Assembly (NCBI GenBank): GCA_963758575.1 | Contig: CAVWWE010000007.1 | Location: forward strand, 4,764-68,763 | DNA: 64,000 bases | Direction: 5' to 3' | Source of the DNA: an uncultured Actinomycetes bacterium | Lineage (GTDB): Bacteria > Actinomycetota > Actinomycetes > Streptosporangiales > Streptosporangiaceae | Shown here: positions 5,600 to 23,447 of the stretch, piece after piece | Layout of the letters: the number at the start of each line of letters is the position of its first letter | Numbering within the stretch: the first letter of the stretch is position 1 | Made by a program: the position numbers and the translations under genes | Notes under the pieces: model-generated | What the model was told of the DNA's origin: nothing | The model's input: the letters and a program-made list of their open reading frames with translations, nothing else | The model's database searches: none

Positions 5600-6088
5600 C
5601 TGACCTCCCCCGAGGTGGTGGCGTGTGCCTACGGTGCACTCCTTTCCCGTTGCCACCAGTGCCGAACCGGGCCAGCCCGGGCCAAATGGGTACCCGGATT
5701 AACGATGCGGGATCCGCGCCCCGTGAGTGAGCCTGTGACCAGCGCACAGGGAGTATCGCTGGGGAGCCTGTGGGCCGTCCCCGTGGTCCGGTGCAGTTGG
5801 GGGCCCGCCGCAGACCACGGGGGCATCCAGCGCTCTGACCAGCCCATGGCCAGCCGTTCCCGCCCGGTGTGGTCAATGTGGCGGAAATGGGTCAGCTGTG
5901 CGCCGGAACATCCCTGAGTTTGGCCGATGGGTGATAATTGCCGGTTATCCAGGCAAGACACCAATCGGCAGGTGACAATGTCGCCAGGGATCGCCCGCCA
6001 TAACGCACGGAGGTGTGGCGACTGGTGAGGTTGGTAATGGGGATGATCAACGGGGCGCCACGTCTATTGGCCCGCCGGGGGCGCGGCC

Positions 6089-8948
6089 ATGCGGGGACGT
6101 GATCGCGAGCAGGAAATCGCCCTCGGATTTGTCCGCGACGGTGCCAGCCGTCACGGCGGGGTCCTGCTCATCGAAGGCGAACCAGGCATCGGCAAATCGG
6201 GGTTGCTCCGGACCGCCGTCGATGAGGCGGCCCGGCGGGGGTTCTCCCTCGTCGCGGCGGCCGCGGACGAGCTGGGCCGGGCGGTGCCGTTCGCCCCGCT
6301 GCTGTCGGCACTGCACGGATCGTTCGGGCCGCCGCCGCCCGAGGCCGGCCACGCCGACCCGGCGGAGGCGGGCTCGACCGACCCGGCGGAGGCGGGCATC
6401 TGGCCGGTGGACAAATTCCGCGTTCTGCTGGAACAGCGCGCCGGGGATCATCCGGTGCTGGTCAGCCTCGATGACCTGCACTGGGCCGATCGGGCCACGC
6501 TGGCCGCGCTCCGTGTGCTGCCCAGCCAGCTGGCCGCCTATCCGGTGGTCTGGCAGCTGGCCCGGAGCACCGCGGCGCCGGGCAACGGGGCCGAGCTGCT
6601 GTTCGACCTGCTGGAGCAGGACGGGGCGGACCGGGTCACGCTCGGCCCGCTCAGCGACGACGCGGTCGCCGGGGTCGTCGCGGACATGCTGCACGCGAAG
6701 CCGGATGCCGGGCTGACCGAACTGTCCGCCGGGGCCGGGGGCAATCCGTACCTGCTGGTGGAGCTCTTAACTGGGCTCCGCGAAGAAGACACCATCCAGG
6801 TCGCCCGGGGGCGGGCCACGCTGGTCTCGGCCCGGCTGCCGGACCGGGTCCAGCGGGCCGTGCGGGCCTGGCTCGGCGGCCGCAGCAGCCGGGTCCGGCC
6901 GCTGCTGGAGACCGCGGCCGTGCTCGGCCGGTCGTTCCGGCTCGAGGACGTGGCCGAGATGCTGGGCGAGGCGCCAGCAGCGCTGCTTCCGCTGCTGAAC
7001 GAGGCGCTGCAGGCGAGCCTGCTGGCGGCCGGGACGGACGACTTCAGCTTCCGGCACGGCCTGGTGTGGCAGGCCATTACCGAGTCCGTGCCGCTGCCCG
7101 CCCGGCTGGCTCTGCACCGCCAGTTTGGCGGCATGCTGCTGGCCCGCGGCGGCTCGGCCGTGGCTGCGGGTGCGCACCTGCTGGCCAGCGCCCGGCCCGG
7201 CGACACGGCGGCCGTCGATGGCCTGGACCAGGCCGCGGCGGAAGCGCTTGGCGCCGCCCCCGCGACCGCCGCCGACCTGGCCGTGCGGGCGCTGGAGCTG
7301 ACCGCGCCCGCGGACCCGGCCCGGATGCAGCGGTCTGCCCGGGCGGCCGAGTCGCTGGCCGCGGCGGGCCGCCTGGCCGACGCCGGGAACATCGCCCGGG
7401 TGGCCCTGGCCCAGCCGCTGCCGGCCGCTGCCGCGGCCCCGCTGCGCTGCGCCATGTCCGCCATCCTGGCCGCGGACGGCCACCCAGATCAGGCCGACGC
7501 GATGGCCGAGTCGGTGCTGGCCACACCGGGGCTGACGAGCCGGCTCCGCGACGAGGCGTTGATCACCCAGTTGCGCGCGCGGGCCGTGCTGGGCGACACC
7601 ATCAGGTCCCGGTCCCTGGCCGAGGCCATCCTGGCCGCCCCGGATCAGCACAGCGTGGCCGCCGTGGCCGGCGCGGAACTGGTGCTGGCCGCCATCAGCT
7701 GGGAGGACGGCTGGGCCAGCCGGGGCCTCGGGCACGCCCGCAGCGCGGTCCGCCGGATCAGCGGGATCTCGCCGGACGCGCGGCACTTCCAGCCGCTGCT
7801 CACCCTGGCCGCGATGCTGGTCGACCTGCGCATGCTGGACGAGGCGTCGGCTGTCATCCAGGCCGCGGCCGGCGACGGCCAGGCACTGCGGTCGAGCGGC
7901 ACGGAACCGGTGCCCGGCATCCTGCGCGCCCGGGCCGACCTGGCCCTGGGACGGACCGATGCCGCCGCGGCCGGGGCGGAGACAGCGCTCCGCACCGCCC
8001 GCGCGCAGAACCTGCCGCTGCACTGCTCAGTGGCGCTGAGCGTGCTGGGTACGGTGGCGATGCGCCGCGGCGACCTGCGGGCCGCAGCCGGCCACCTGCG
8101 CACCCGGCGGAGCTATCCGCAGCGCCGGCTGGTATGCGCGGACCGCGACGCTGCTGGCCGAGGCGCAGGTCACCGAGGCCGCTTCCGGGGCGGCCGCAGC
8201 CATGGCGCTGGCCGGCCCGATCTACCGTGAGCTGCCCGGCCGCCGCTCGGTGCTGATCGGCGAGCCCACCGCGCCGGCCTGGCTGGCCCGCACCGCGCTG
8301 GCCGCGGGCGAGCGGCAGCGCGCCGCCGACGTGGCCTGGATCGCCGATGAGATCGCCCGGCTCAACCCGGTGCTCAAGATTGCCGCGACCGCCGCGGTGC
8401 ATTGCCGCGGCATCGTCAGCCGCGACCCGGCCCGGCTGGCCCAGGCCGCGGCCGAGCACCCGGACCCGTGGGCCCGGGCGTCGGCCGCCGAGGACCTGGC
8501 CACGCTGCTGGCCGCGGACGGCGACCAGGCGGGCAGCATCAGGCAGCTGGACCAGGCAGCCGGTGGCTACGGCCAGGCCAGCGCCACCCGCGACATGGCC
8601 CGGGTGCGCCGCCGCCTGCGCAGGCTCGGGGTGCGCCGCCGGCACTGGGCTCCCGGCGGCGGGCCGGGCACCGGGTGGGACAGCCTGACCGAGACCGAGC
8701 GGGCCATCACCGCCCTGGTCTCTGAGGGGCTGAGCAACCAGCAGGTGGCGGAGCAGATGTACCTGAGCGTGCACACCGTGGCCGCGCACCTGCGGCAGAT
8801 CTTCCGCAAGCTCGGCATCGGCTCCCGGGTCGAGCTGACCAGGCTGGCCATCGAGGATGGGCAGCGCCGGGAGCACGGGCACCCGGCGCCGCCCAGCTGG
8901 CGGCCGCGGCCCGGCCGCCAGCATCACCCGCGCCGCGATCGCGGCTAG
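6089..8948 (+). pseudogene. large ATP-binding LuxR-family (LAL/MalT-like) regulator, frame broken near 8105-8130
   Basis: N-terminal P-loop (LLIEGEPGIGKSGLL) and Walker B (VLVSLDDLHWAD), long Ala/Leu-rich TPR-like middle, C-terminal LuxR HTH (LTETERAITALVSEGLSNQQVAEQMYLSVHTVAAHLRQIFRKLGI). The two halves are ORFs 6089..8230 (frame 2) and 8202..8948 (frame 0). Frame 0 already reads sensibly from about 8130 (WYARTATLLAEAQVTEA). Confidence 0.8.
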
Positions 8949-8952
8949 CAGG

Positions 8953-10623
8953 TCACCGCGCTGGACATGGGTTGTTGGGCAGGATGTTCCGGAAATCATT
9001 GATGACGTTCGCGCTGCCACCGCCCATCTGGGTGTACGACAGTGCCAGCAGCGAGCCGTACCCGGCGTTGCGCCCGAAGTCGGTGATCTGACCCGGGATG
9101 CTGTTGCCGAACTGCCAGACGCAGCCGTGCCTGGTGTTGGTGATCGAGTAGAACGGGTAGAACGCGGCCGGCTGTTTCTGGTCGGTCTGCGGGATCAGCG
9201 TGCAGCCCGCGCCGGTGGCCGTGTTGCACGTTGATTCGATGGCCGGCAAGTCGGTTTCCAGCGCGGCTCGCTGATATTGCTGTCTGTAGCCCGGCCCGGT
9301 GGTCGGGCTGGTGAACTGGAACGGCGCCGGGTGGTCCTGCAGGTTGCCGTCCGGCCAGAGCTTCTGGTACGACGCGCCGTCGAACCCGGTATTGGTGTAC
9401 GAGCAGCCGTTCACCCGGTAGACCAGTGCCTCCGATCCGGGGAAGCAGAACAGGTCGTCGGCGTCGGGTGCCGAGGCAGTCGGCCCGCGGCCCTCGGTGT
9501 TACCCGTGGGGCACGTGGTCGGGTTGCCGTTCGGCAGCAGGCCGAACGGGGTGGCCGGGATCTTCTTCGGGCCGGTGCAGAACTGGAAGTGGCCGATCTC
9601 GGTGTCGAACGCGATGTTGTACGAGCCCGCCGCCCAAGTGACCCGGGTCTTGGTCGATGACGTGCTGTACAGCGGGTGGAAGTTGTACGGGAGAGCCGTG
9701 CACGACTTGCCCGTGGGGGCGTACTTGACCTGTGCGAACCCGTTGGCCGCGCTGGCCGTCATGGACCCGGTGGCGCCGGTGGTCAGGTCACGCAGGATGA
9801 CCTTGAGGCCGTTCCTGGTGTCGGTCATGGTCGCCTGGATCCGGTCCCCGGGGTTCATGTACAGGTCCTGCGAACTGGGCGTGAAGGTCTTCACGGTTGC
9901 GTTGACCGGGTTGGCCGGCGCCTGCGCCTTCCCGTTCTTGGTGACGAAGGCGAAGTTGACGTACTCCTCACCCACCTTGGCCAGGCAGGTCGGGTTGAGC
10001 GTCTTCCCGGTCACCGGGTTGAGCGCCAGGCTGTCGATGTTCAGCGCGGCGCACCACTCGGTCGGGTTGCATGAACTGGCGCCCACGGCCACCTGCCAGG
10101 TCGGCCACGGCACCCAGCCGGGTGGGTAGAACTGCAGTTCCGTGTAGGCCTGCCCGACGTGCTTGGGCGAGACCGCGGGATCCAGGATGTTGCGGTCGCT
10201 GGCCGCCGGGCACTTCTTGACCTGCTCCGGGTAGGACTGCGTGGCGCACATGGCCATGCCCAGCCATTCGGCCCCGCTGAGCTCGAACGGGTACGACTTG
10301 TTGACCGCGTTGGGATGGCTGGCCGACGGGGCGGTTGGCAGCGTCAGCGTGTAGCGCAGGTGGCTGCCCGAGCCCGGTGTGTTCGAATAGAACAGCGCGG
10401 AAGGCTCGTCGTGCCCGACATAGTGGCCGAACACGCCGTAGGAGTTCTGCACCTCGGTGCACAGGCCACTGGCGTGGGCGCAGTTGATGTGCGCGTGCGC
10501 GCTGGTGGCGTAGGCCGGGGTGCTGGCTGCGGCCTGGGCCGCGGTGCCGCCGGTGAGCGCCAGTGGTGTCGCCACCAGCGCCGCCGTCACGGCCACGGAG
10601 AGCAAGGATCTGACCGGTTTCAT
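8953..10623 (-). CDS. secreted Cys-rich protein of unrecognised family (paralogue A)
   Basis: Start ATG 10623 with GAGGAGG 6 nt upstream. Signal peptide MKPVRSLLSVAVTAALVATPLALTGGTAAQA. About 530-aa mature part with many conserved Cys and blocks YVGHDEPS, ELQFYPPGW, MNPGD, ETDLPAIE and FYPFYS. About 45-50% identical by eye to the ORF pieces at 15548-17221. Confidence 0.75.
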   Translation of the reverse strand: MKPVRSLLSVAVTAALVATPLALTGGTAAQAAASTPAYATSAHAHINCAHASGLCTEVQNSYGVFGHYVGHDEPSALFYSNTPGSGSHLRYTLTLPTAPSASHPNAVNKSYPFELSGAEWLGMAMCATQSYPEQVKKCPAASDRNILDPAVSPKHVGQAYTELQFYPPGWVPWPTWQVAVGASSCNPTEWCAALNIDSLALNPVTGKTLNPTCLAKVGEEYVNFAFVTKNGKAQAPANPVNATVKTFTPSSQDLYMNPGDRIQATMTDTRNGLKVILRDLTTGATGSMTASAANGFAQVKYAPTGKSCTALPYNFHPLYSTSSTKTRVTWAAGSYNIAFDTEIGHFQFCTGPKKIPATPFGLLPNGNPTTCPTGNTEGRGPTASAPDADDLFCFPGSEALVYRVNGCSYTNTGFDGASYQKLWPDGNLQDHPAPFQFTSPTTGPGYRQQYQRAALETDLPAIESTCNTATGAGCTLIPQTDQKQPAAFYPFYSITNTRHGCVWQFGNSIPGQITDFGRNAGYGSLLALSYTQMGGGSANVINDFRNILPNNPCPAR

Positions 10624-15547: not shown

Positions 15548-17221
15548 TCACCCCGCCGGGCAGGGGTTGGCCATGTCCCCGCTGTTGAAGAGGTTAATGA
15601 TCGTCACCGGCTTGAATCCGGTGTTCGGGAAGACGACCTTCAGTAGGTGGCCGTACTCGGTCGTGGAGCTGCCGCCGAAGTCGTTCTTTGTGTCCGGCAG
15701 GAACTTGCCGCCCTCCTGCCAGGCGCACGACCCGTTGCGCACCGTCGTCGAGTAGAACGGGTAGAACTTCGCGCCGTGCGGCGGGTTCACGCAGTTCGCC
15801 CCCGTCGTCTGGTTGCAGAACGGCGGATTGAACTGCGCTCCCTTCGCCTCGATCGCCGGCAGGTCGTTCTCGAAGGCCATCGTCTGGTAGTTCTGCCCGT
15901 GCGTGGTCGGGCTGGTGAACAGCACCGGCTGCGGGTGCAGCGCCTGGTCCCTGGCCACGTTCGGGATGGTGCCGGGCCAGTCCTTGCGGTAGGCCTGGCT
16001 GTCGAAATCCTCATCCGGGGCGAGGCACCCGTCGATCCGCACCAACGGTCGATTGGGCGCCCGTCAGGCACTCGGTGTCGTCCGCGTCCACCGTCTTGTC
16101 CGGCGGGGCCGGCTTGGTGCAGTTGCCGGTCGTCGTGTTGACGGCCAGGCAGTTCTCGAAGTGGTCGAGTTCGTCAGAGAAAGCCACGTTGTAGGTGTGC
16201 GCGGCCCAGACGGTCCCGCGCGGGTTGGCCGTCGAGTACGCGGGATGGAACGCGTACGGCGCCTCGTGGCAGGTCTTGGACTTCGGCGTGAACAGGATGT
16301 GGCCAAAGCCGTTGGCCACCGACGCGGTCATCGAGCCGTGCTGGCCCGAGGTCAGATCGTTCAGCACGATCCGCAGCCCGGCCGGTGTGTCCTGCATATG
16401 GATCCGGACCGTGTCACCGGGGTTCATGAACAGGGCCTTGTGTGGGTTCGGGTCCACCGCCGCGAAGTTGGGATGAGTGACCGTCCCGGTGAACAGCGGG
16501 TTGGCGGGTGCCTGCGATTTCCCGCTCTTGGTGATGTACGCCCAGTTGACTGGCTCGGCACCGCCGAGGACGAAGTTGTTGCAGGCAGCGGTATTCGCGA
16601 CTCCGGTGTTCATGTTCTGCACGAAGCTGTCGATGGTCATCGCCGCGCAGTACTGGTGCGCCGTGCAGCCATCTCCGGTGAACTGCTCGACCCATCCCGG
16701 TGGATAGAACTGCAGTTCCATGAACGCGGTGCCGGGATGCTTCCCGATGTAGTTCGGGGCGGCGGGGTTGGCGCCGACCAGATTGTTGCTGTCCGAGTCC
16801 GGCGTGCACTTCTTGGTGAACTCAGGCGCGGACTCGTTGTCGCACAGCGCGAGACCGAACCAGAACGTGGGCCGCAGTTGGAAGTTCCACGTCGTGCCGC
16901 CGACGCCGGTCTTGTTCGGCTGTTTCACCGGATCCTTTGGCAGGGCGACCGTGTAGGTCATGTTGTTGCCGGAGCCCGGGATACCGGACTTGAACAAGAC
17001 CGACGGCTCGTCGTGGCCGACATACGAAGTCCTGGGCTGGCTACCCAGGTCGGTGCACATGGAGCGCTTGCTCTGGCAGAACGGCCGGGGTAGTACGAGC
17101 TACTAGCCCGCGGCGCCTGAGGGTGTGACATGGCGTTGGTCGCGGCGGTGGCCGGGAGTGTGGCGGCCGCCAGGACGAGGAAGCTCAGAAGGCTGATCAC
17201 AGCCAGAGCGCACCGCTTCAT
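15548..17221 (-). pseudogene. paralogue B of the secreted Cys-rich protein, at least two frame breaks (about 17085-17110 and about 16055)
   Basis: Signal peptide MKRCALAVISLLSFLVLAAATLPATA starts at ATG 17221 (RBS GGAAGGGA). The body is in ORF 16011..17060 (FCQSKRSMCTDLGSQPRTSYVGHDEPSVLF...) and the tail in ORF 15548..16045 (VRIDGCLAPDEDFD...FENDLPAIE...FYPFYS). All three pieces are collinear with paralogue A but in different frames. Confidence 0.75.
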
Positions 17222-17503
17222 CGTCTGTTGTCCCTTCCTGCGTCGATGAGACCTTGGGCGTGATGAATGGCGCCCACACAGCCGGCCAACCCTCGCGGGC
17301 TGCCGCACCGGCGGTCCCAGCGCAGCCGGGCATGCCCCTAGCGAACCCCTTCCCCCTGGATAAAAGCGTCACGGAGCCTGTTGACCACGACTGGCCGAGC
17401 CGACGGCGCATCTGACAATGAAGCCTGCGGGTGACAGACGTAACCGGCCGCTTTCGGGGTGCTACTAGCTGATACTCTCCCAGCAACTGGGAGATGGCAA
17501 TGA

Positions 17504-18326
17504 ATGAGGACAGAGATAATCCAGGCCACTGCGCCCGGCCCGTTAACCGAGATCGACACCAGCGTCGCGCACCCCGCCCGGGTCTATGACTACTGGCTCG
17601 GCGGCAAGGACAACTTCGCGGCCGACCGCGAGGCCGCCGAGCAGGTGCTGGCGGTCACGCCCGGGCTGCGCTTCCGGGTCCGCGCCAACCGGGCGTTCCT
17701 GGCCCGGGCGGTGCGGTTCCTGGCCGGCCAGGCCGGCCGTCGGGCAGTTCCTCGACATCGGCACCGGCATCCCGGCCGCGGACAACACGCACCAGGTCGC
17801 CCAGGCGGTGGCACCCGAAGCGCGGATCGTCTACGTGGACAACGACCCCATCGTGCTGGCGCATGCCCGGGCGCTGCTGGCCAGCGGCCCGCACGGGGCC
17901 ACCCAGTACGTGCACGGCGACGTCCGCGAGCCAGCCGCCATCCTGAAGCAGGCGGCGCAGACCCTGGACTTCAGCCAGCCCATCGCGCTGATGCTGCTCG
18001 GCATCCTCCATCTGGTGCAGGACAGCGAGGACCCGTACCGGATCGTGGCCGAACTGATGGCCGCCCTGCCGCCCGGCAGCTACCTGGCCATCTCCCATCC
18101 GGCCAGCGACACGCACCCGGGCCAGGCCGAGGCGCAGAAGCGGTACAACGAGCGGGTGTCCACCCCACAGACGCTGCGCACCCGGGACGAGGTGGCCCGG
18201 TTCTTCACCGGGCTGGACCTGGTCCCACCCGGGCTGGTGTACGTGCACACCTGGCGGCCTGACCCCGGTGACGCCGAGCTGCCCGGCGTGACCTCGGCGT
18301 ATGGCGGTGTCGCCCGCAAGAACTGA
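17504..18326 (+). pseudogene. SAM-dependent methyltransferase of the DUF574 type, frameshift near 17735-17742
   Basis: The N-terminal block ARVYDYWLGGKDNFAADREAAEQVL...RANRAFLARAVRFLAGQAG is in frame 2. The continuation QFLDIGTGIPAADNTHQVAQAVAPEARIVYVDNDPIVLAHARALL is in frame 0 (ORF 17586..18326). One extra base in the GGCCGGCCG run would explain the break. Confidence 0.75.
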
Positions 18327-18331
18327 CGGCC

Positions 18332-19054
18332 CTACCCGGCTAGCCCGCCGCGCCAGGTGGGCGCGGCGGCGTGGCCGGCCGCAACGTCGTAGGCGGCCCG
18401 GGCCAGCAGCCGGGTGGAATCCAGCGTGGGCAGCGGGCTCACCTCCGGGGTCACCAGCAGCGGGATCTCGGTGCACACCAGGGCGGCCGCGTCGCAGCCC
18501 CGCCCGGCCAGCTGGGCGATGATCCGCAGGTACTCCTGGCGGGATTCGCCGGTGAACACGCCGTTCACCAGCTCATCGAAGATGATCCGGTTGATGGTGT
18601 CCCGGTCGGCCGGGTCCGGGACCTCGGCCGCGATTCCCCGGGCGGCCAGCACCCGCGGGTACAGCGGGCTGTCCATCAGGTACTTCGTGCCCAGCATCCC
18701 GACCCGCCGGTAGCCCGCCCGGGCCGCCGCGTCCGCCACTACCCCGGCGATATGCAGGCCGGGCAGGTCCAGATCCGGGCCGGGGTGTTCCAGCGCGAGG
18801 TGCGCGGTGTTGTCCGGGCAGGCGAAGAAGTCCGCGCCGGCCCGGGCCAGCCGCTGCACGCTGGTCGCCAGCGTGGCCCGGATCGGGGCGTAGTCCCCCG
18901 CCGCCCAGGCGGGCATGCTGGAGCCGAACGCGATGTAGTCGAGCGTCACGTCCGGGTGCTCGTTGCGGCCGGTCCGCCGGAACCCCTCCTGGCAGTAGGC
19001 CAGGAAGCACAGCGCGGCCCCCTCGGTGCTGTGCGCGAGGATGCCGAGATGCAC
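18332..19054 (-). CDS. Asp/Glu/hydantoin-racemase-family amino-acid racemase (aspartate-racemase-like, two catalytic Cys present)
   Basis: FFACPDNTAH (first Cys block, compare ACNTAH) and ALVCTEIPLL (second Cys block, compare GCTELPLL). GTG start 12 nt after the stop of the upstream aaRS-like gene. Confidence 0.8.
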   Translation of the reverse strand: MHLGILAHSTEGAALCFLAYCQEGFRRTGRNEHPDVTLDYIAFGSSMPAWAAGDYAPIRATLATSVQRLARAGADFFACPDNTAHLALEHPGPDLDLPGLHIAGVVADAAARAGYRRVGMLGTKYLMDSPLYPRVLAARGIAAEVPDPADRDTINRIIFDELVNGVFTGESRQEYLRIIAQLAGRGCDAAALVCTEIPLLVTPEVSPLPTLDSTRLLARAAYDVAAGHAAAPTWRGGLAG

Positions 19055-19066
19055 GGTTTCAGCCTC

Positions 19067-20179
19067 TCACGCCCACTCGTGCCGCTCCCCCTGGTGCAGC
19101 GCCTGGTAGATCCGGTTGCGCAGCGCGTTGGCGTCTTCGCTGGTCAGCGTCCGGTGCAGGTCGCGGAGGACCACCCGGAGCAGCACATTCTGCTGCCCGG
19201 GCCGGGCGCCGAGGCGGCAGATGGCCGGGTCCGGCAGCTGCTGGTAGCCGGTGGCGGACAGCACCCGGATCTCCTCCACCCGGTCCGCGTCCGGGCCGAG
19301 CGTGTCCCGCACCTGGTCACCGAGCGTCTCCTCGTCTTCGTGGCCGGCCACTGCGAGGGACAGGTCCCGGGTGATGGGCGGCATCGATGAGACCGGGTGA
19401 TAGCGGGTCAGGTCGAGCAGCTGCCCGCTGACCCGCGGATCGGCCGAGCGGAGCAGCCGGATGTCGGGCACGTGCTTGACCAGCATGACCAGCCGGTCCA
19501 GGCCCATGCCCAGGGCCAGCCCGCTGTGCCCGCCCAGCCCAGCGCCGGCCAGCACGCCCGGATTGGCCACCCCGCACTCCCCCACCTCCAGCCAGCGCCC
19601 GTCCTCGGACACGTCGACCTGGCGGCCGCCGAGCGTGTACGGGTGGCTCCGCGGTTCCAGGCGGACCGGCCGCCCCGGGATGAGCGCGGCCACCAGCACC
19701 GCGATCATCTCGTCCAGATCGGTACCGCCCAGCCGCCTGGTGCTGATCCGCCACAGGTCGAGCTGATGCGGGGTGCCGGTGTGCTGCCAGTCGATGGCGT
19801 CACGCCGGTACGCGATGCCCGGGCAGACCAGCAGCACATCCGCCGCGGGCGCCCGGGCCAGCTCGCGGAGCGCGGGCGGGATGATGGCGGTGGAATGGCT
19901 GCGCAGCATCTGCCCGGCGGCCACGTACCGGGTATACCGGGCCTCCCGGGTGACCGCGCCGGCTGGGTAGCCGAGCCGGTCGTAGTTGTCGGCCACCGGG
20001 ACTACCCGCGGGCCGCGGCACCAGCGGACCGCGCAGCCCCAGGCGCTGGCCAGCGCCTCGGTCGCCCGGCCGATGATGAGCTGGATGGCGTGCGGGCCGG
20101 CCGCGGGGTCGGTGAGGTCGCGGATGCTGAGGTCGCGCCGGAGTTGCTCCGGCGTGAGATAGACGGCAGGACTGGACAT
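19067..20179 (-). CDS. phenylalanyl-tRNA-synthetase alpha-like class II aaRS paralogue with C-terminal FDX-ACB-like domain (monomeric, mitochondrial-PheRS-like layout)
   Basis: Motif-2-like GIAYRRDAIDWQHTGTPHQLDLW and motif-3-like GLALGMGLDRLVMLVKHVPDIRLL. The C-terminal ~95 aa (ITRDLSLAVAGHEDEETLGDQVRDTL...VLLRVVLRDLHRTLTSEDANALRNRIYQAL) fit the ferredoxin-fold anticodon-binding pattern. No N-terminal coiled-coil arm and no adjacent pheT. RBS GAGGAG. Confidence 0.7.
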   Translation of the reverse strand: MSSPAVYLTPEQLRRDLSIRDLTDPAAGPHAIQLIIGRATEALASAWGCAVRWCRGPRVVPVADNYDRLGYPAGAVTREARYTRYVAAGQMLRSHSTAIIPPALRELARAPAADVLLVCPGIAYRRDAIDWQHTGTPHQLDLWRISTRRLGGTDLDEMIAVLVAALIPGRPVRLEPRSHPYTLGGRQVDVSEDGRWLEVGECGVANPGVLAGAGLGGHSGLALGMGLDRLVMLVKHVPDIRLLRSADPRVSGQLLDLTRYHPVSSMPPITRDLSLAVAGHEDEETLGDQVRDTLGPDADRVEEIRVLSATGYQQLPDPAICRLGARPGQQNVLLRVVLRDLHRTLTSEDANALRNRIYQALHQGERHEWA

Positions 20180-20404
20180 GGTGACTCCTCGCTGCGGTGA
20201 ACGGATCCGGGCTGGCTGTCCTCCCGGCCCCGTGGTTCACCCGCGGGACGTCACTGGCTCAGCACGCAGCGCCTCCCGGCGGCCCACCGTGAGCCGGGAG
20301 GCAGCAAAATCGCCGTGCCTGCAGCCGTGCCATGCCTTGGACGGTAACACCCGGCCACTCCGCCGGGCCACTGATACACAGCCCGGCTGAACGGCAGCCC
20401 CAGT
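20180..20404 (-). promoter_or_regulatory. 225-nt structured 5' leader/intergenic of the aaRS-like operon with mutually exclusive pairings
   Basis: On the minus-strand RNA one CCUCCCGGC (reverse complement of 20293-20301) can pair with either of two GCCGGGAGG copies (reverse complements of 20272-20280 and 20220-20228). A further GGUGAAC/GUUCACC helix lies just upstream of the SD. Confidence 0.35.
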
Positions 20405-21974
20405 TCACGCGTTGCTGATCGTCGCGACCGTGCCGTCCAGCTTGGTCAGGGACACGGTGAAGTGCTCGTTGTACAGGTGCGCGTGATCACGCAGGTAACT
20501 CAGCGCGACCGCCTCGCCGAGCCTGATGGACTCGTCGGTGTCGCTGCGCCAGTGGATCCCGGCATGGATGCCATGGCCGAAGCTGACGTTGTGCGCCAGT
20601 TTGTGCAGCTCGCTGTTCACCGTCAGCGGCCGTTCCCCGGCCGGCGCGCGGTAGTTCTCCAGCGCGGTCCCGTCGGCCGACGGCACCTTCGGGCCGGTGA
20701 TCGGGAAGTTGCCGTCGAAGAAGAACTTCAGCACGGTGATGCACGCGCCGGCCACGGTGCCGTGCCCGCTGGGATAGGCCGGATGGGCCGGCGAGCCCTC
20801 CGGGAAGGCCTGGGCCAGGAAATAGCTGTTGTTGGCCCGGAAGCTGGCCTGCACGGCCTGGGAGTTGAGCACGGTGTCGCTGACGTGCCCCTCGATCCTG
20901 CCGCCCTGGCCGGTCTGCTGCAGGTACACGATGGCCCCGCCGGACTCCGGCCGGTGCCGCAGGTGCGCCCACCACTTCTGGTACCACACCTCGCGGATCG
21001 CCTGGCCGGCCACCGCGGCCAGGGTGGCGGCGATGTCCGGCTGGCCGAACGTGCCGAAACCGTTCTGCGTCTTGGATGCGGCGTACGGGTTGCCCGAGTT
21101 CAGCGGCGGCGGCAGCGGATTGTTGATCGTGTTCAGCACCAGGTAGGCCATCAGGTACTCCTGGTACGGCACGTCGGCGTGGGTGAGCGCGGCCAGCGCC
21201 CGCCCGTCGTTCAGGTAGCGCGCCCCGGCAGGGGTCAGGGCCTTCCCGGTGGGCCTGCCGTTCTGCACGTTCAGGAACTCGCCGGGCTCGGTCATGAAGT
21301 CGAGGCCGGCCTGGTTGGTGACGTACTGCTGGGTGACCGGCAGCGTGCCCAGCCCGGCCGGCAGCAGCAGGAACTGGGACAGGTACGGCCCCAGCTTCTC
21401 GCCGGCGAAGTCACCGCGCAGCAGCAGCCGCGGCGTGACCTGGCCGGTGCGGGTGTCCCGGGGCCCGGCATACTCCGGCAGCGAGGACAGCTCGGCGGCC
21501 GCCCGCTGCGCCACGCTGCTCTGCTCATACGCCCCGAACGGCACGTCACGCAGCAGCGATGCCCAGTACAGCTCGACGAGTTCGGTGGCGTACGCCTCGC
21601 TGGCCAGCGCGGGCGCCGGTGGCACCAGGTACTGGCTGCCGTCCAGGCTGTCCAGGCAGAACGCCAGCCCGGCCTGTGGCCCGTTCAGGGTGCGCGGGCC
21701 ACCCAGGATGATCTTCTCGAAGTCGGCCGGGGAACCGGTGCGCAGCGCGGTCTTGAACGTCGCATATGCGCCCAGGTCGACCAGGCCGATGCCGGCCTGC
21801 AGGACACCTTTGGTGTACGTGCCCGACTTGTCGCTGTACCGCGCCTCATCGCCGTTGTCGATCTGGGCCTGCGGCGGCGGCGAACGCGTCGCTGCCTGCG
21901 GTGCGGGTGCGCAGCGCCAGCGACCGTAACACCCGGTCGCTGGTCGCCGGCCTGAGTTCCTCGTTCAGCGTCAT
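20405..21974 (-). pseudogene. vanadium-dependent haloperoxidase (PAP2 superfamily), N-terminal frameshift near 21890-21900
   Basis: ATG 21974 with GGAGGA 8 nt upstream. The span is 1570 nt (not a multiple of 3). Catalytic blocks are intact: YQKWWAHLRHRPE (KxxxxxxRP), HPAYPSGHGTVAGA (SGH) and HAGIHWRSD. The N-terminal block QIDNGDEARYSDKSGTYTKG is in the main frame, while the Met is in another frame. Confidence 0.75.
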
Positions 21975-22131
21975 CCGGTGCGCATCCTCCCGCCCTGCGT
22001 CCCACTACGCTGGGGACACGTCTGGTGGGTACCAGCCTCCCGGCCGCCGTCTGCGTCCAGGTTGATTGCCAGTTGCCGCCGATTAATCCCGGGTTGAGGG
22101 CGCGGGTTGAGCGGGGCGGGCCGGGGGACAA

Positions 22132-22159
22132 CGGGATACGGGGACATCGGGATACGGGG
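22132..22159. promoter_or_regulatory. 12-mer CGGGATACGGGG repeated at 16-bp spacing immediately upstream of glgC
   Basis: Read directly (22132-22143 and 22148-22159). A GGGTTGAG x2 pair lies at about 22091-22111. The second copy abuts the glgC RBS region. Confidence 0.3.
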
Positions 22160-22166
22160 GTAGCCG

Positions 22167-23447
22167 ATGGCTGGGCAGCGGGTGCTGTGCATCGTTCTCG
22201 CCGGTGGGGGTGGCCAGCGCCTGGCGCCACTGACCGCCGACCGGGCCAAACCAGCCGTCCCGTTCGGCGGCGTGTACCGGGTGGTCAACTTCGCGCTGTC
22301 CAACCTGGTCAACGCGGGCTGGCGGCGGATCTGCGTGCTGACCCAGTACAAGAGCCACAGCCTGGACCGGCACCTGAGCACCACCTGGCGGCTGAACAGC
22401 GTGCTGGGCGACTACGTGACGGCGGTCCCGGCGCAGCAGCGGGCCGGCCCGCACTGGCAGGCCGGCTCGGCCGACGCGATCTTCCAGTCGCTCAACCTGA
22501 TCGACGACGAGCGGCCCGCCGTGGTGGCGGTGTTCGGCGCCGACCACGTCTACCGGATGGACCCGCGGCAGATGCTGGCCGCGCACCGGGCCTGGGGCGC
22601 CGGGGTCACCCTGGCCGGTGTGCCGGTCCCCCGGGCGCCGGCCGCGCGGGCCGGGGCGGCCGGGATGGCCGGCTTCGGCGTCGCGCGGACCGCGCCGGAC
22701 GGCCACCACGTCGTGTCGTTCCGGGAGAAGGCCGCCGGCCCCGCTGGCCGCCCAGGCGCGACTCCGGGCGCGGCCTACGTGTCCATGGGCAACTACCTGT
22801 TCGACCGGGACGTCCTGGTCAACGCGCTGAGTAAGGACGCGGTCAACGACCGCAGCGGGCACAGCATGGGCGGCGACATCGTCCCGATGCTGGTCCGGGA
22901 CGGCGCCGCGCACGTCTACGACTTCCTGCACAACCAGGTGCCCGGCGCGGCCGGGCGGGACGCGGGCTACTGGCAGGACCTGGGCACGCTGGACGCCTAC
23001 TTCGGCGCGCACCTGGACCTGTGCGCGGACGACCCGACGTTCCGGCTGGACAACGCCCGGTGGCCGATCCTGACCCAGGTCGCCCCGCTGCCGCCGGCCA
23101 AGTTCGCCCGGGACGACGCTGGCCAGCCCGGGCAGGCGATCGGCAGCCTGGTCAGCAACGGCGTCATCATCGCGGGTGGCCTGGTCCGCGACTCAGTGCT
23201 GTCGCCGGGCGTCCGGGTGGCTGGCCCGGCCCGGGTCAACCAGGCGGTGCTGCTGCACAACACCCAGGTCGGCCGGGGCGCCGTGGTCCGGCGCGCCATC
23301 CTGGACAAGAACGTCGTCGTCCCCGACAACGCCGCGGTCGGGGTGGACAAAGAGCATGACCGGGCCCGCGGCTTCGCGGTGTCCGACGGCGGCATCACCG
23401 TCGTCGGCAAGGGCCAGCCGGTCACGCCTTTAGCCCAGGCATGCTGA
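22167..23447 (+). CDS. glgC: glucose-1-phosphate adenylyltransferase
   Basis: [62 protein letters not shown]-like AGSADAIFQ and the C-terminal left-handed beta-helix region. There is a short in-frame Ala/Gly-rich insertion around residue 160. Confidence 0.9.

What the first reader, a model, noticed from the sequence alone, without database searches (positions are those of the whole stretch)
18332..20179. Operon of a stand-alone monomeric PheRS-alpha-like aaRS paralogue and a two-Cys amino-acid racemase
The 370-aa protein keeps class II motifs 2 and 3 of PheRS alpha and ends in an FDX-ACB-like domain, the layout known from monomeric mitochondrial PheRS. It lacks the bacterial N-terminal tRNA-binding arm and there is no pheT nearby, so it is not the housekeeping alpha2-beta2 enzyme. 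Twelve nt downstream starts a PLP-independent racemase with both catalytic Cys blocks. An amino-acid-activating enzyme coupled to a racemase suggests activation or tRNA charging of a D- or non-canonical amino acid. Possible purposes are a tRNA-dependent natural-product step, cell-envelope aminoacylation or resistance to an aaRS inhibitor. I know of no characterised system with this pairing.
Basis: partly seen in the sequence, partly recalled or inferred. Interest (0 to 1): 0.6.

Follow-up and report, generated by a model that had tools for sequence, protein, structure and literature searches.

The report
Phe-free spare PheRS-like ligase, chance racemase neighbour
The 370-residue gene belongs to SrmL, a catalogued but unsolved family of one-piece phenylalanyl-tRNA-synthetase look-alikes; it contains no phenylalanine and sits behind a conserved mini-gene with one rare Phe codon, while the racemase next door is only a chance neighbour.

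Summary
Both ORFs are real, 12 nt apart. The 370-aa protein is a clear member of NCBIfam NF051887, "PheS-related mystery ligase SrmL". Its predicted fold overlays human mitochondrial PheRS over the whole length.

The proposed ligase-racemase partnership fails. Only 1 of 79 other srmL loci, a near-identical sister species, has the racemase. Three same-genus genomes without srmL keep the racemase directly after the upstream vanadium-haloperoxidase gene, and their spacers hold remnants of a deleted srmL. The racemase also has Asp, not Cys, at its first catalytic position.

SrmL is a rare, mobile, accessory paralogue. All five SrmL genomes tested also carry a normal pheS.

Three features tie it to phenylalanine:
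- PheRS homology with intact ATP motifs.
- No Phe in 370 residues (51 of 57 relatives also have none).
- A conserved leaderless upstream ORF of about 25 codons with one invariant rare Phe codon (CGA-UUU), set in a covarying RNA switch that hides the ribosome-binding site. Rfam has no match.

My best reading is a stand-by PheRS made when charged tRNA-Phe runs short. The direction of the switch is unresolved.

This scan has already seen SrmL, its Phe-codon leader and its Phe-free make-up on other DNA. I found no publication.

The parts
19067..20179 (-). srmL: a 370-aa single-chain PheRS-like ligase (class II core plus FDX-ACB domain) with no Phe residue
   Evidence: NF051887 scores 502 bits against a cut-off of 300. 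The AF2 model and Foldseek match to human mitochondrial PheRS (TMq 0.80) are. It has 0 Phe in 370 residues.
20180..20346 (-). Conserved srmL leader: promoter -10 box, leaderless upstream ORF and RNA switch ending at the srmL ribosome-binding site
   Evidence: The 58-nt core is found at a fixed distance before srmL in at least 45 of 79 loci. The motif is present in 73 of 76 testable loci. Rfam gives no hit.
20341..20346 (-). -10-like hexamer TACCGT, 7 nt before the upstream ORF's ATG (implies a leaderless transcript)
   Evidence: A TANNNT hexamer lies exactly 6-7 nt before an in-frame ATG or GTG in 68 of 74 loci. The sequence was read.
20259..20333 (-). Upstream ORF of 24 codons, MARLQARRFCCLPAHGGPPGGAAC*
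   Evidence: The frame that reads TTT as a codon is a short ORF in 72 of 74 loci, against 9-10 of 74 for the other two frames.
20307..20312 (-). CGA-TTT: the invariant Phe codon and the Arg codon before it, both the rarest synonymous codons here
   Evidence: Leaders use UUU in 55 of 63 cases and CGA in 54 of 63. In window genes TTT is 10 of 378 Phe codons and CGA is 22 of 1048 Arg codons.
20291..20302 (-). Segment 1 (GCCUCCCGGCUC), starting 4 nt after the Phe codon
   Evidence: It is complementary both to segment 2 and to segment 3.
20271..20285 (-). Segment 2 (GGGCCGCCGGGAGGC), the local partner of segment 1, inside the upstream ORF
   Evidence: RNAalifold calls this hairpin. The median duplex energy is -25.7 kcal/mol in actinobacterial clades, and the pairing is weak or absent in proteobacterial leaders.
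20220..20231 (-). Segment 3 (GGGGCCGGGAGG), the long-range partner of segment 1, about 40 nt before the Shine-Dalgarno sequence
   Evidence: The pairing is found in nearly every leader and covaries. 10-12 of 12 positions pair in 60 of 63 leaders, against 8-9 in shuffles, with compensatory pair types at six positions.
20194..20244 (-). Domain II: a long stem (GCGGGUGAAC / GUUCACCGC) enclosing segment 3, whose base reaches the Shine-Dalgarno sequence
   Evidence: RNAfold predicts it. Wobble and compensatory changes were seen by eye in A3. It cannot coexist with the 1:3 pairing.
20185..20190 (-). srmL Shine-Dalgarno sequence GAGGAG, sequestered in the free RNA
   Evidence: The median probability of being unpaired is 0.04 over 63 leaders. 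GGAG is invariant in A3.
18332..19054 (-). YgeA-like Asp/Glu-racemase family gene (240 aa) with motifs ACPDNTAH and VCTEIP. It is a neighbour of srmL, not a partner.
   Evidence: Pfam Asp_Glu_race and TIGR00035 score 102.5 against a cut-off of 93.1.
20405..21625 (-). Vanadium-dependent haloperoxidase homologue. It was the racemase's neighbour before srmL stood between them.
   Evidence: phmmer to 1qhb gives E 1.8e-53. It is followed directly by the racemase in G014, G029 and G003.

Best explanation
The 370-aa gene is a member of the SrmL family. SrmL is a horizontally mobile, accessory, single-chain relative of PheRS built like the mitochondrial enzyme.

Shown here:
- The ATP-binding motifs are intact and under strong purifying selection.
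- The two Phe residues that wall the substrate ring in PheRS are replaced by an invariant His and Tyr. The pocket-floor residues are kept (T182 and A222, matching what I recall as E. coli T251 and A294).
- The whole protein lacks phenylalanine.
- The gene has its own promoter and a conserved leaderless upstream ORF of about 25 codons with a single invariant, rare Phe codon (CGA-UUU).
- That codon sits just before an RNA segment that can pair either locally or with a distant covarying partner. The srmL ribosome-binding site is base-paired in the free RNA.

Inferred:
- SrmL is a stand-by PheRS that charges tRNA-Phe with Phe or a very close analogue.
- Its synthesis does not itself need Phe-tRNA-Phe.
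- It is switched by ribosome behaviour at the leader's Phe codon when charged tRNA-Phe is short. Examples would be starvation, or inhibition or poisoning of the main alpha2-beta2 PheRS.

The racemase 12 nt downstream is not part of this device. It is an older neighbour of the upstream haloperoxidase gene. srmL stands between them in this lineage and has since been deleted in sister species.
For: Family and fold.

Conserved catalytic residues and pocket changes:
- Invariant R125, R126, D127, Q139, D141, H179, Y181, T182, E198, E201, A222, G224, G226, D228 and R229 in 57 sequences.
- These were aligned to A. baumannii PheS and human mitochondrial PheRS.

Accessory and mobile:
- Over the cut-off in 1 of 61 relatives, namely G000 itself.
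- Found in 5 of 300 other genomes sampled from the phylum.
- The 79 loci span Actinomycetota, Gamma-, Delta- and Alphaproteobacteria and Longimicrobium.
- A canonical pheS is also present in 5 of 5 SrmL genomes tested.

Phe-free:
- 0 of 370 residues here. 51 of 57 genome copies and 86 of 121 metagenome homologues also have none.
- Background Phe content is 2.9%, so the chance of zero in 370 residues is 1.8e-5.
- Canonical PheS in the same genomes or genus has 13-21 Phe.

Leader.
- The upstream-ORF stretch that a ribosome stalled at UUU would cover is itself complementary to the SD and start codon in many leaders. Energies are -17 to -25 kcal/mol in the main actinobacterial clade, and z is below -2 in 18 of 63.

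Racemase not a partner. The racemase has 7 Phe in 240 residues.
Against: - No biochemical evidence exists for any substrate. The ring-contacting F-to-H and F-to-Y changes and the invariant E201 (Gly in PheRS) could mean a different amino acid.
- Equilibrium folding does not show that a ribosome parked at the Phe codon frees the SD. The median unpaired probability is 0.04 free, 0.16 stalled at Phe and 0.25 with a ribosome at the upstream ORF's stop.
- The SD is also held by a second anti-SD strand after the upstream ORF's stop. Simple kinetic reasoning can equally give 'on when the upstream ORF is read through'.
- In the window itself the upstream-ORF:RBS complementarity is weak (-12.5 kcal/mol, z -1.0).
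- CGAUUU may be conserved partly as an anti-SD sequence rather than only as codons.
- Anticodon-reading residues were not tested.
- The own genome's pheS and pheT were not found, in a 64%-complete genome.
Confidence: 0.55

Rival explanations
1. SrmL activates something other than Phe, such as a hydroxylated, halogenated or otherwise modified aromatic amino acid, or it aminoacylates a non-canonical acceptor. In this reading the upstream ORF is a translational coupling device. It allows SrmL synthesis only while the Phe codon is decoded smoothly, so SrmL is made when Phe-tRNA-Phe is plentiful.
For: - Invariant pocket changes F-to-H179, F-to-Y181 and G-to-E201.
- The 1:3 pairing that releases the SD from its main anti-SD is favoured when a ribosome covers segment 2 or the upstream ORF's stop, not when it sits at the Phe codon.
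- In this lineage a vanadium haloperoxidase gene lies just upstream.
Against: - A protein purged of Phe makes little sense if it is made only when Phe-tRNA-Phe is plentiful.
- The residues that hold the amino-acid backbone and the pocket floor (T182, A222) are those of PheRS.
- The haloperoxidase is a neighbour only in this genus.
Confidence: 0.25
2. SrmL and the racemase form a functional operon that activates, or loads onto tRNA, a D- or non-canonical amino acid made by the racemase.
For: - The gap is 12 nt, on the same strand, with no terminator-like site between the genes.
- The arrangement is shared with the sister species (L022/L124).
Against: - 0 of 78 other srmL loci have a racemase, and srmL has no conserved neighbour at all.
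- The racemase is kept without srmL in G014, G029, G003, G002 and G018.
- The spacers of G003, G014 and G029 carry remnants of a deleted srmL.
- The racemase is not Phe-depleted.
- Its first catalytic position is Asp.
Confidence: 0.04
3. SrmL is the organism's only PheRS, the housekeeping enzyme, because no pheS or pheT was found in the window's genome.
For: Searches of the own genome with TIGR00468 and TIGR00472 found only srmL and nothing for pheT.
Against: - The genome is 63.7% complete.
- The sister genome with a 93%-identical srmL has a canonical pheS above cut-off on the same contig.
- So do 4 of 4 other SrmL genomes tested.
- 34 of 36 other genomes of the genus have an ordinary pheS and none has srmL over the cut-off.
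Confidence: 0.03

Closest known systems
NCBIfam NF051887, 'PheS-related mystery ligase SrmL' (equivalog; function unknown)
   Same: It matches the model over its full length at 502 bits against a cut-off of 300, with the same two-domain build.
   Different: Nothing differs. This is a member. The family has no assigned substrate or role, and I found no paper on it.
Human mitochondrial PheRS (FARS2; PDB 3cmq, 5mgv)
   Same: It is a single chain made of a class II PheRS core followed by an FDX-ACB anticodon-binding-type domain. The whole-model TMq is 0.80.
   Different: - Identity is only 23-24%, and TIGR00469 scores 98 bits against a cut-off of 258.
- The FPF ring-stacking motif is HPY here, the Gly of the xGCG strand (LGCG in the two PheRS sequences) is Glu201, and the protein has no Phe at all.
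- It is a bacterial accessory gene with its own leader.
Bacterial PheS/PheT (alpha2-beta2 PheRS) and its pheM leader-peptide attenuator (Rfam Phe_leader RF01859)
   Same: The catalytic core is homologous. An upstream mini-ORF containing Phe precedes the synthetase gene.
   Different: - There is no coiled-coil arm, no beta subunit and no editing domain.
- The leader has one Phe codon rather than a run, and is leaderless.
- It has no U-tract terminator. Instead it has an SD-sequestering switch with a covarying long-range helix.
- Rfam gives no match.
Auxiliary, antibiotic-resistant aaRS genes induced through leader-peptide attenuation, for example Streptomyces coelicolor trpRS1
   Same: It is a second, dispensable synthetase gene behind a short ORF carrying the cognate codon, in an actinomycete.
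   Different: No inhibitor, resistance phenotype or inducer is known for SrmL. The architecture differs from the housekeeping enzyme, and the protein is depleted of its cognate amino acid.
ermC / cat-type translational attenuation
   Same: A short ORF lies just before a helix, and the downstream gene's SD is base-paired. A ribosome held in the short ORF would cover one strand.
   Different: The sensor would be a hungry codon rather than a drug-bound ribosome. There are two alternative anti-SD strands and a duplicated G-rich segment. The mechanism has not been shown.
E. coli YgeA (L-Asp/Glu racemase; PDB 5hqt), for the downstream gene
   Same: It is among the best solved relatives (E 1.5e-25; the top hit, 3ojc, is the same kind of protein). 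It is the same family, with the second catalytic Cys conserved.
   Different: The first catalytic position is Asp81. From memory it is Thr83 in YgeA and Cys in classical Asp racemases. The substrate is unknown.

Membership tests
SrmL (NCBIfam NF051887) | Whole-protein score above the curated cut-off of 300 bits | tested here: met
   502.3 bits, covering residues 19-364 against model positions 1-349.
SrmL (NCBIfam NF051887) | PheS-type class II core followed by an FDX-ACB-type domain in one chain | tested here: met
   The AF2 model and Foldseek match to mitochondrial PheRS are.
Canonical bacterial PheS (TIGR00468) | Score above the cut-off of 237 bits | tested here: not met
   91 bits.
Canonical bacterial PheS (TIGR00468) | N-terminal coiled-coil tRNA-binding arm and an adjacent pheT | tested here: not met
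   The core starts at about residue 54. No pheT match is found in the window or the own genome.
Mitochondrial PheRS (TIGR00469) | Score above the cut-off of 258 bits | tested here: not met
   98 bits. The fold likeness is nonetheless high.
Class II aminoacyl-tRNA synthetase (active) | Motif 2 and motif 3 arginines and the acidic or amide residues that hold ATP, Mg and the alpha-amino group | tested here: met
   R125, D127, Q139, D141, E198, D228 and R229 align with the PheRS residues and are invariant in 57 sequences.
Phenylalanine-specific synthetase | Phe ring pocket: FPF walls, with Thr/Val and Ala at the floor | tested here: inconclusive
   The floor residues T182 and A222 are kept. The walls are H179 and Y181, with an extra E201. 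No ligand modelling was possible.
Phenylalanine-specific synthetase | Recognition of the tRNA-Phe anticodon by the FDX-ACB domain | not testable with these tools
   The domain is present and has conserved residues (R271, D272, S274 and others). No tRNA docking or assay was available.
Conserved srmL-racemase gene pair | Adjacency kept in unrelated genomes | tested here: not met
   1 of 79 loci, a sister species only. The racemase is retained after srmL deletion.
Two-Cys PLP-independent Asp/Glu racemase | Family score above cut-off | tested here: met
   TIGR00035 scores 102.5 against 93.1, and Pfam Asp_Glu_race gives E 3.5e-25.
Two-Cys PLP-independent Asp/Glu racemase | Cys at both catalytic positions (xCNTxH and GCTE) | tested here: not met
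   The first position is Asp81 (C79-P-D-NTAH) and the second is Cys194. Which residue is catalytic in the reference enzymes comes from my own knowledge.
Leader-peptide attenuator (Phe_leader RF01859 type) | Rfam match, a run of Phe codons and a U-tract terminator | tested here: not met
   No Rfam hit at E up to 1. There is one Phe codon in 57 of 63 upstream ORFs, and no U-tract after the stems.
Leader-peptide attenuator (general kind) | Conserved short ORF with the cognate codon next to alternative RNA pairings that control the downstream gene | tested here: met
   The ORF is present in 72 of 74 loci, and the -10 box is spaced 6-7 nt from its start in 68 of 74. The 1:2 and 1:3 pairings are alternatives, and 1:3 excludes SD sequestration by the main anti-SD. 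Regulation itself has not been shown.

The most novel reading that the evidence does not exclude
srmL with its leader is a self-contained, horizontally mobile 'emergency PheRS cassette'. It would be a synthetase purged of its own amino acid, so that it can be made with no Phe-tRNA-Phe. A single hungry rare codon in a leaderless mini-ORF would switch it on. The cassette would give tolerance to natural PheRS inhibitors, to toxins that deplete tRNA-Phe, or to Phe starvation. The leader would be a new, cross-phylum class of translational riboregulator that is absent from Rfam.
Probability: 0.4. Interest if true: 0.75.

Novelty: new variant of a known kind. Interest (0 to 1): 0.55.

Why it matters
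- The headline idea, an aaRS paralogue coupled to a racemase, is an accident of gene order and should be dropped.
- What remains is a concrete, testable handle on a family that NCBI itself calls a 'mystery ligase'. Three independent features point to phenylalanine decoding: PheRS homology, total avoidance of Phe, and an invariant rare Phe codon in a conserved leaderless upstream ORF wired to the gene's ribosome-binding site.
- If SrmL is a stand-by PheRS, it would be a clear case of an enzyme shaped to be made without its own substrate amino acid.
- It would also be a possible mobile tolerance determinant against PheRS-targeting compounds.
- It would be a bacterial counterpart of the single-chain mitochondrial enzyme.
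- The leader would add an uncatalogued regulatory RNA found from Actinomycetota to Proteobacteria.

Tried and rejected
- **Run of Phe codons.** I looked for a classical run (at least 3 Phe in 8 residues) in small ORFs upstream of srmL. Only 2 of 80 gave weak hits. The test was too strict, because the real leader has one Phe codon.
- **Rfam and ARAGORN.** Rfam at E up to 1 over 17000-22500 found nothing. ARAGORN found no tRNA in the window.
- **Promoter and terminator scan.** It found no sigma-70 consensus promoter and no terminator between the genes. The -10 box only emerged from the comparison of loci.
- **Conserved neighbours of srmL.** None was found. The commonest neighbours are ABC transporter parts, glyoxalase-like proteins, a MobA-like transferase, FdhD and a molybdopterin oxidoreductase. 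Each occurs in at most 16 of 79 loci, consistent with synteny among close kin.
- **pheS and pheT in the own genome.** Not found. I do not use this as evidence, because the genome is 64% complete.
- **RNAalifold on a MAFFT alignment.** It recovered only hairpin 1:2. Domain II and the 1:3 pairing needed duplex and anchored analyses.
- **Constrained equilibrium folding with ribosome footprints.** It did not settle whether stalling at the Phe codon opens the SD.
- **Free-gap global alignment of spacers.** It scatters short pieces spuriously. I rely only on the long terminal blocks.
- **Search of the own genome for a second copy of the leader.** Only the srmL copy was found. An earlier pattern was mistyped.
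- **Literature searches.** I found no paper on SrmL or on a bacterial single-chain PheRS paralogue.
- **Not attempted.** A phylogeny including mitochondrial PheRS, because no such sequences could be obtained. A homodimer prediction, a covariance model and sequencing-run searches.
Full report
**Observation**

The window is 72% G+C and comes from an actinomycete metagenome-assembled genome (5.47 Mb, 61 contigs, 63.7% complete). On the minus strand, ORF 19067-20179 encodes 370 aa and ORF 18332-19054 encodes 240 aa. They are 12 nt apart, and both have the GC3 of real genes (0.93 and 0.95).

The first protein has Pfam tRNA-synt_2d (E 6e-29) and a sub-threshold FDX-ACB match. The second has Asp_Glu_race.

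There is one correction. The racemase's first 'Cys block' reads C79-P-D81-NTAH. In the HMMER alignments to YgeA-type racemases (3ojc, 5hqt), the residue immediately before NTxH is Asp81. From my own knowledge that is the catalytic position: Cys in classical Asp racemases and Thr83 in E. coli YgeA. Only the second Cys (C194, VCTEIP) is canonical.

**What the ligase is**

NCBIfam already has a model for it: NF051887, 'PheS-related mystery ligase SrmL'. The protein scores 502 bits against a cut-off of 300. It falls far below the cut-offs of pheS (91 against 237) and mitochondrial pheS (98 against 258).

An AlphaFold2 model built on 57 family members is confident (pLDDT 92.2, pTM 0.87). Foldseek ranks human mitochondrial PheRS first over the whole chain (TMq 0.80, 23-24% identity). 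Bacterial PheS chains cover only the catalytic domain (TMq about 0.55). The mitochondrial-type layout is therefore confirmed.

I did not test whether the protein is monomeric. I found no publication on the family.

**Paralogue, accessory and mobile**

- Among 60 relatives, 36 of them from the same genus, none has SrmL above the cut-off, while nearly all show the weaker hits typical of an ordinary pheS.
- In an even sample of 300 other genomes of the phylum, 5 have SrmL.
- A scan of one genome per species found 79 loci. They lie in Streptosporangiaceae-like MAGs, Acidimicrobiales, Actinocrinis, Jiangellaceae, Asanoa and Kutzneria. They also lie in Gamma-, Delta- and Alphaproteobacteria and Longimicrobium.
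- All five SrmL genomes I tested have a canonical pheS above cut-off. One of them is the sister species with a 93%-identical srmL.
- pheS and pheT were not found in the window's own genome. At 64% completeness that is no evidence that SrmL is the housekeeping enzyme.

**The racemase is a chance neighbour**

tblastn with the racemase finds it beside srmL only in L022, the sister species. It is absent from the other 78 loci. Clustering all neighbours shows no conserved partner of srmL at all. The commonest families are transporter parts, glyoxalase-like proteins, a MobA-like transferase, FdhD and a molybdoenzyme. Each occurs in at most 16 loci.

Within the genus, seven other genomes carry a homologue of the racemase. 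Six are 83-97% identical orthologues, and one (G032) is a 39%-identical paralogue.

- In G014, G029 and G003, which lack srmL, the racemase follows the upstream gene directly, with spacers of 67, 35 and 58 nt. That upstream gene is a vanadium-dependent haloperoxidase homologue (E 1.8e-53 to 1qhb).
- These spacers hold remnants of srmL. G003 keeps a 64-nt block that is 50/64 identical to window 19103..19040. Its first part still reads ALRHGDRHEWA*, against ALHQGERHEWA* in SrmL, whose ...WA C-terminus is a family trait. G014 and G029 keep the last 9 and 6 nt, including the stop codon.
- So the order haloperoxidase-srmL-racemase is older than these species, and srmL has been deleted while the racemase stayed.

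**Catalytic residues**

In 57 family members the motif 2 and motif 3 arginines and their acidic or amide partners are invariant (R125, D127, Q139, D141, E198, D228, R229). Aligned to A. baumannii PheS and human mitochondrial PheRS:

- FPFTEPS becomes H179-P-Y181-T182-L-G-G.
- GxAFG becomes G-L-A222-L-G.
- The Gly of the xGCG strand (LGCG in the two PheRS sequences) is Glu201.

Which PheRS residues contact the ring (Phe258 and Phe260 in T. thermophilus; T251 and A294 in E. coli) is from my own knowledge. The enzyme therefore looks active. It keeps the PheRS pocket floor but has different, still aromatic, walls.

**Phe-free protein**

- P0001 contains no phenylalanine in 370 residues.
- 51 of 57 genome-derived SrmL proteins and 86 of 121 metagenomic homologues also have none. 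Most of the rest have one.
- Genes of the window average 2.9% Phe, so the chance of zero in 370 residues is 1.8e-5.
- Canonical PheS in the same genomes or genus has 13-21 Phe.
- This also gives a simple reason for the F-to-H, F-to-Y and F-to-L changes in the pocket motifs. The racemase has 7 Phe in 240 residues.

**A conserved leader**

The 225-nt spacer upstream of srmL is not anonymous.

- A 58-nt core is about 90% identical in loci whose proteins are only about 70% identical. It lies at a fixed distance from the start codon.
- In 73 of 76 testable loci the motif (mostly CGA)-TT[T/C], then a short spacer, then a GCCYCCCGG-like C-rich arm, is present.
- The frame that reads TTT as a codon is a short ORF in 72 of 74 loci, against 9-10 of 74 for the other frames.
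- A TANNNT hexamer lies exactly 6-7 nt before its ATG or GTG in 68 of 74 loci. This is the geometry of a leaderless transcript.
- Phe is codon 6-10, and the stop follows 51 nt after TTT in 43 of 74 loci.
- There is one Phe per upstream ORF in 57 of 63. It is UUU in 55 of 63, preceded by CGA in 54 of 63. In the window's genes these are the rarest synonymous codons: TTT is 10 of 378 Phe codons and CGA is 22 of 1048 Arg codons.
- In the window: -10 box 20346-20341, upstream ORF 20333-20259 (MARLQARRFCCLPAHGGPPGGAAC*), CGA-TTT 20312-20307.
- Rfam has no match. The leader occurs once in the own genome.

**RNA switch**

Segment 1 starts 4 nt after the Phe codon. It can pair with segment 2, a local hairpin that is strong only in actinobacterial clades. 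It can also pair with segment 3, which lies about 40 nt before the SD.

- The 1:3 pairing is found in nearly every leader and covaries. Examples are GCCCCUCGGCC/GGCCGAGGGGC, GCCCCUGGUCC/GGGUCCAGGGG and CGCCCCGGCCGUC/GACGACCGGGGCG.
- 10-12 of 12 positions pair in 60 of 63 leaders, against 8-9 in shuffles. Compensatory pair types occur at six positions.
- In the free RNA the SD is paired (median unpaired probability 0.04). Its main partner is an anti-SD strand after the upstream ORF's stop, within a long stem called domain II.
- Forcing 1:3 costs about 7.5 kcal/mol and abolishes that pairing.
- The upstream-ORF stretch around CGAUUU is also complementary to GGAGUC plus the start codon in many leaders. 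Energies are -17 to -25 kcal/mol in the main clade, and in L085 the Phe codon lies inside a 9-bp anti-SD. In the window itself this pairing is weak.

So the ribosome-binding site has two alternative covers. One of them is exactly what a ribosome waiting at the Phe codon would occupy.

**What is not settled**

Constrained equilibrium folding does not show clear SD release with a ribosome at the Phe codon (median 0.16). It shows slightly more with a ribosome at the upstream ORF's stop (0.25). The direction of the switch is therefore inferred from biology, not shown.

A protein built without Phe, behind a single rare Phe codon, is most simply one that is to be made when Phe-tRNA-Phe is lacking. 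This has precedents: the E. coli pheST attenuator, and auxiliary antibiotic-resistant synthetases such as S. coelicolor trpRS1 (from my own knowledge).

The rival reading remains open at about one in four. In it, a different aromatic substrate is activated, and expression is coupled to smooth read-through of the upstream ORF.

**Earlier notes of this scan**

SrmL has been reported at least eight times on other DNA. Phe-codon leaders before it were seen in Saccharibacteria, and one invariant rare Phe codon plus a Phe-free protein was seen in another genome.

I re-derived and tested these points here on independent loci. Those notes are leads, not support.

- The genus-level deletion series that uncouples the racemase.
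- The leaderless-promoter geometry.
- The covarying 1:3 helix across phyla.
- The two alternative anti-SD strands.

**Use of an unpublished genome**

One relative (G048) is flagged as unpublished. It enters only the tallies, and no specific claim rests on it.

**Verdict**

The ligase-racemase interpretation is refuted. The gene is a member of a catalogued family of unknown function. The best-supported working model is a Phe-independent stand-by PheRS under a hungry-codon leader.

Noticed in passing
window 20405-21625 (-) with 18332-19054 (-); L119, L120, L121: A vanadium-dependent haloperoxidase homologue (E 1.8e-53 to Corallina bromoperoxidase 1qhb) and the YgeA-like racemase are direct same-strand neighbours (35-67 nt apart) in several species of the genus. 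This is the older gene pair, and its joint function is unknown. The haloperoxidase alignment starts at chain residue 144, so the ORF as called may lack its N-terminal part.
   Followed up: partly
window 18332-19054 (-), residues 79-85: The racemase and all its orthologues in the genus have ACPDNTAH, with Asp at the position of the first catalytic Cys (or Thr in YgeA). A 39%-identical paralogue in G032 has the YgeA-type LCTNTMH. This may be an atypical or one-directional racemase, or another activity of the superfamily.
   Followed up: partly
L122 (G002) 7586-9020: In this species the haloperoxidase-racemase spacer holds a 1.4-kb insert with a reverse-strand ORF that I judged LacI-like by eye (not scanned) in place of srmL. 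The spacer is a hot spot for gene gain and loss.
   Followed up: no
L046:6001-7074 and L074:6001-7095: Two srmL copies carry an in-frame stop codon (codons 25 and 149). They may be pseudogenes or sequencing errors. L046 also lacks the leader motif.
   Followed up: no
L074 about 5790-5985; L075 and L031 just after the srmL start: Short tandem repeats sit at the 5' end of some srmL genes, for example repeated ACCGATCAGCACGGCCTT units in L074. They suggest variable N-terminal extensions.
   Followed up: no
window 17504-18326 (+): The convergent Methyltransf_19 gene matches relatives in two pieces that lie in different frames (query residues 1-54 and 52-246). The Pfam match lacks the first 62 profile positions. 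This may be a frameshift or a miscalled start.
   Followed up: no
L003-L008 (G051, G045, G044, G057, G060, G056): In six genomes of other families in the same class, the only PheS-like hit scores 119-149 bits on the SrmL model in one contiguous stretch. In the genus, ordinary pheS gives two split hits of about 70 and 60 bits. These may be a different type of housekeeping PheS that is closer to SrmL.
   Followed up: no
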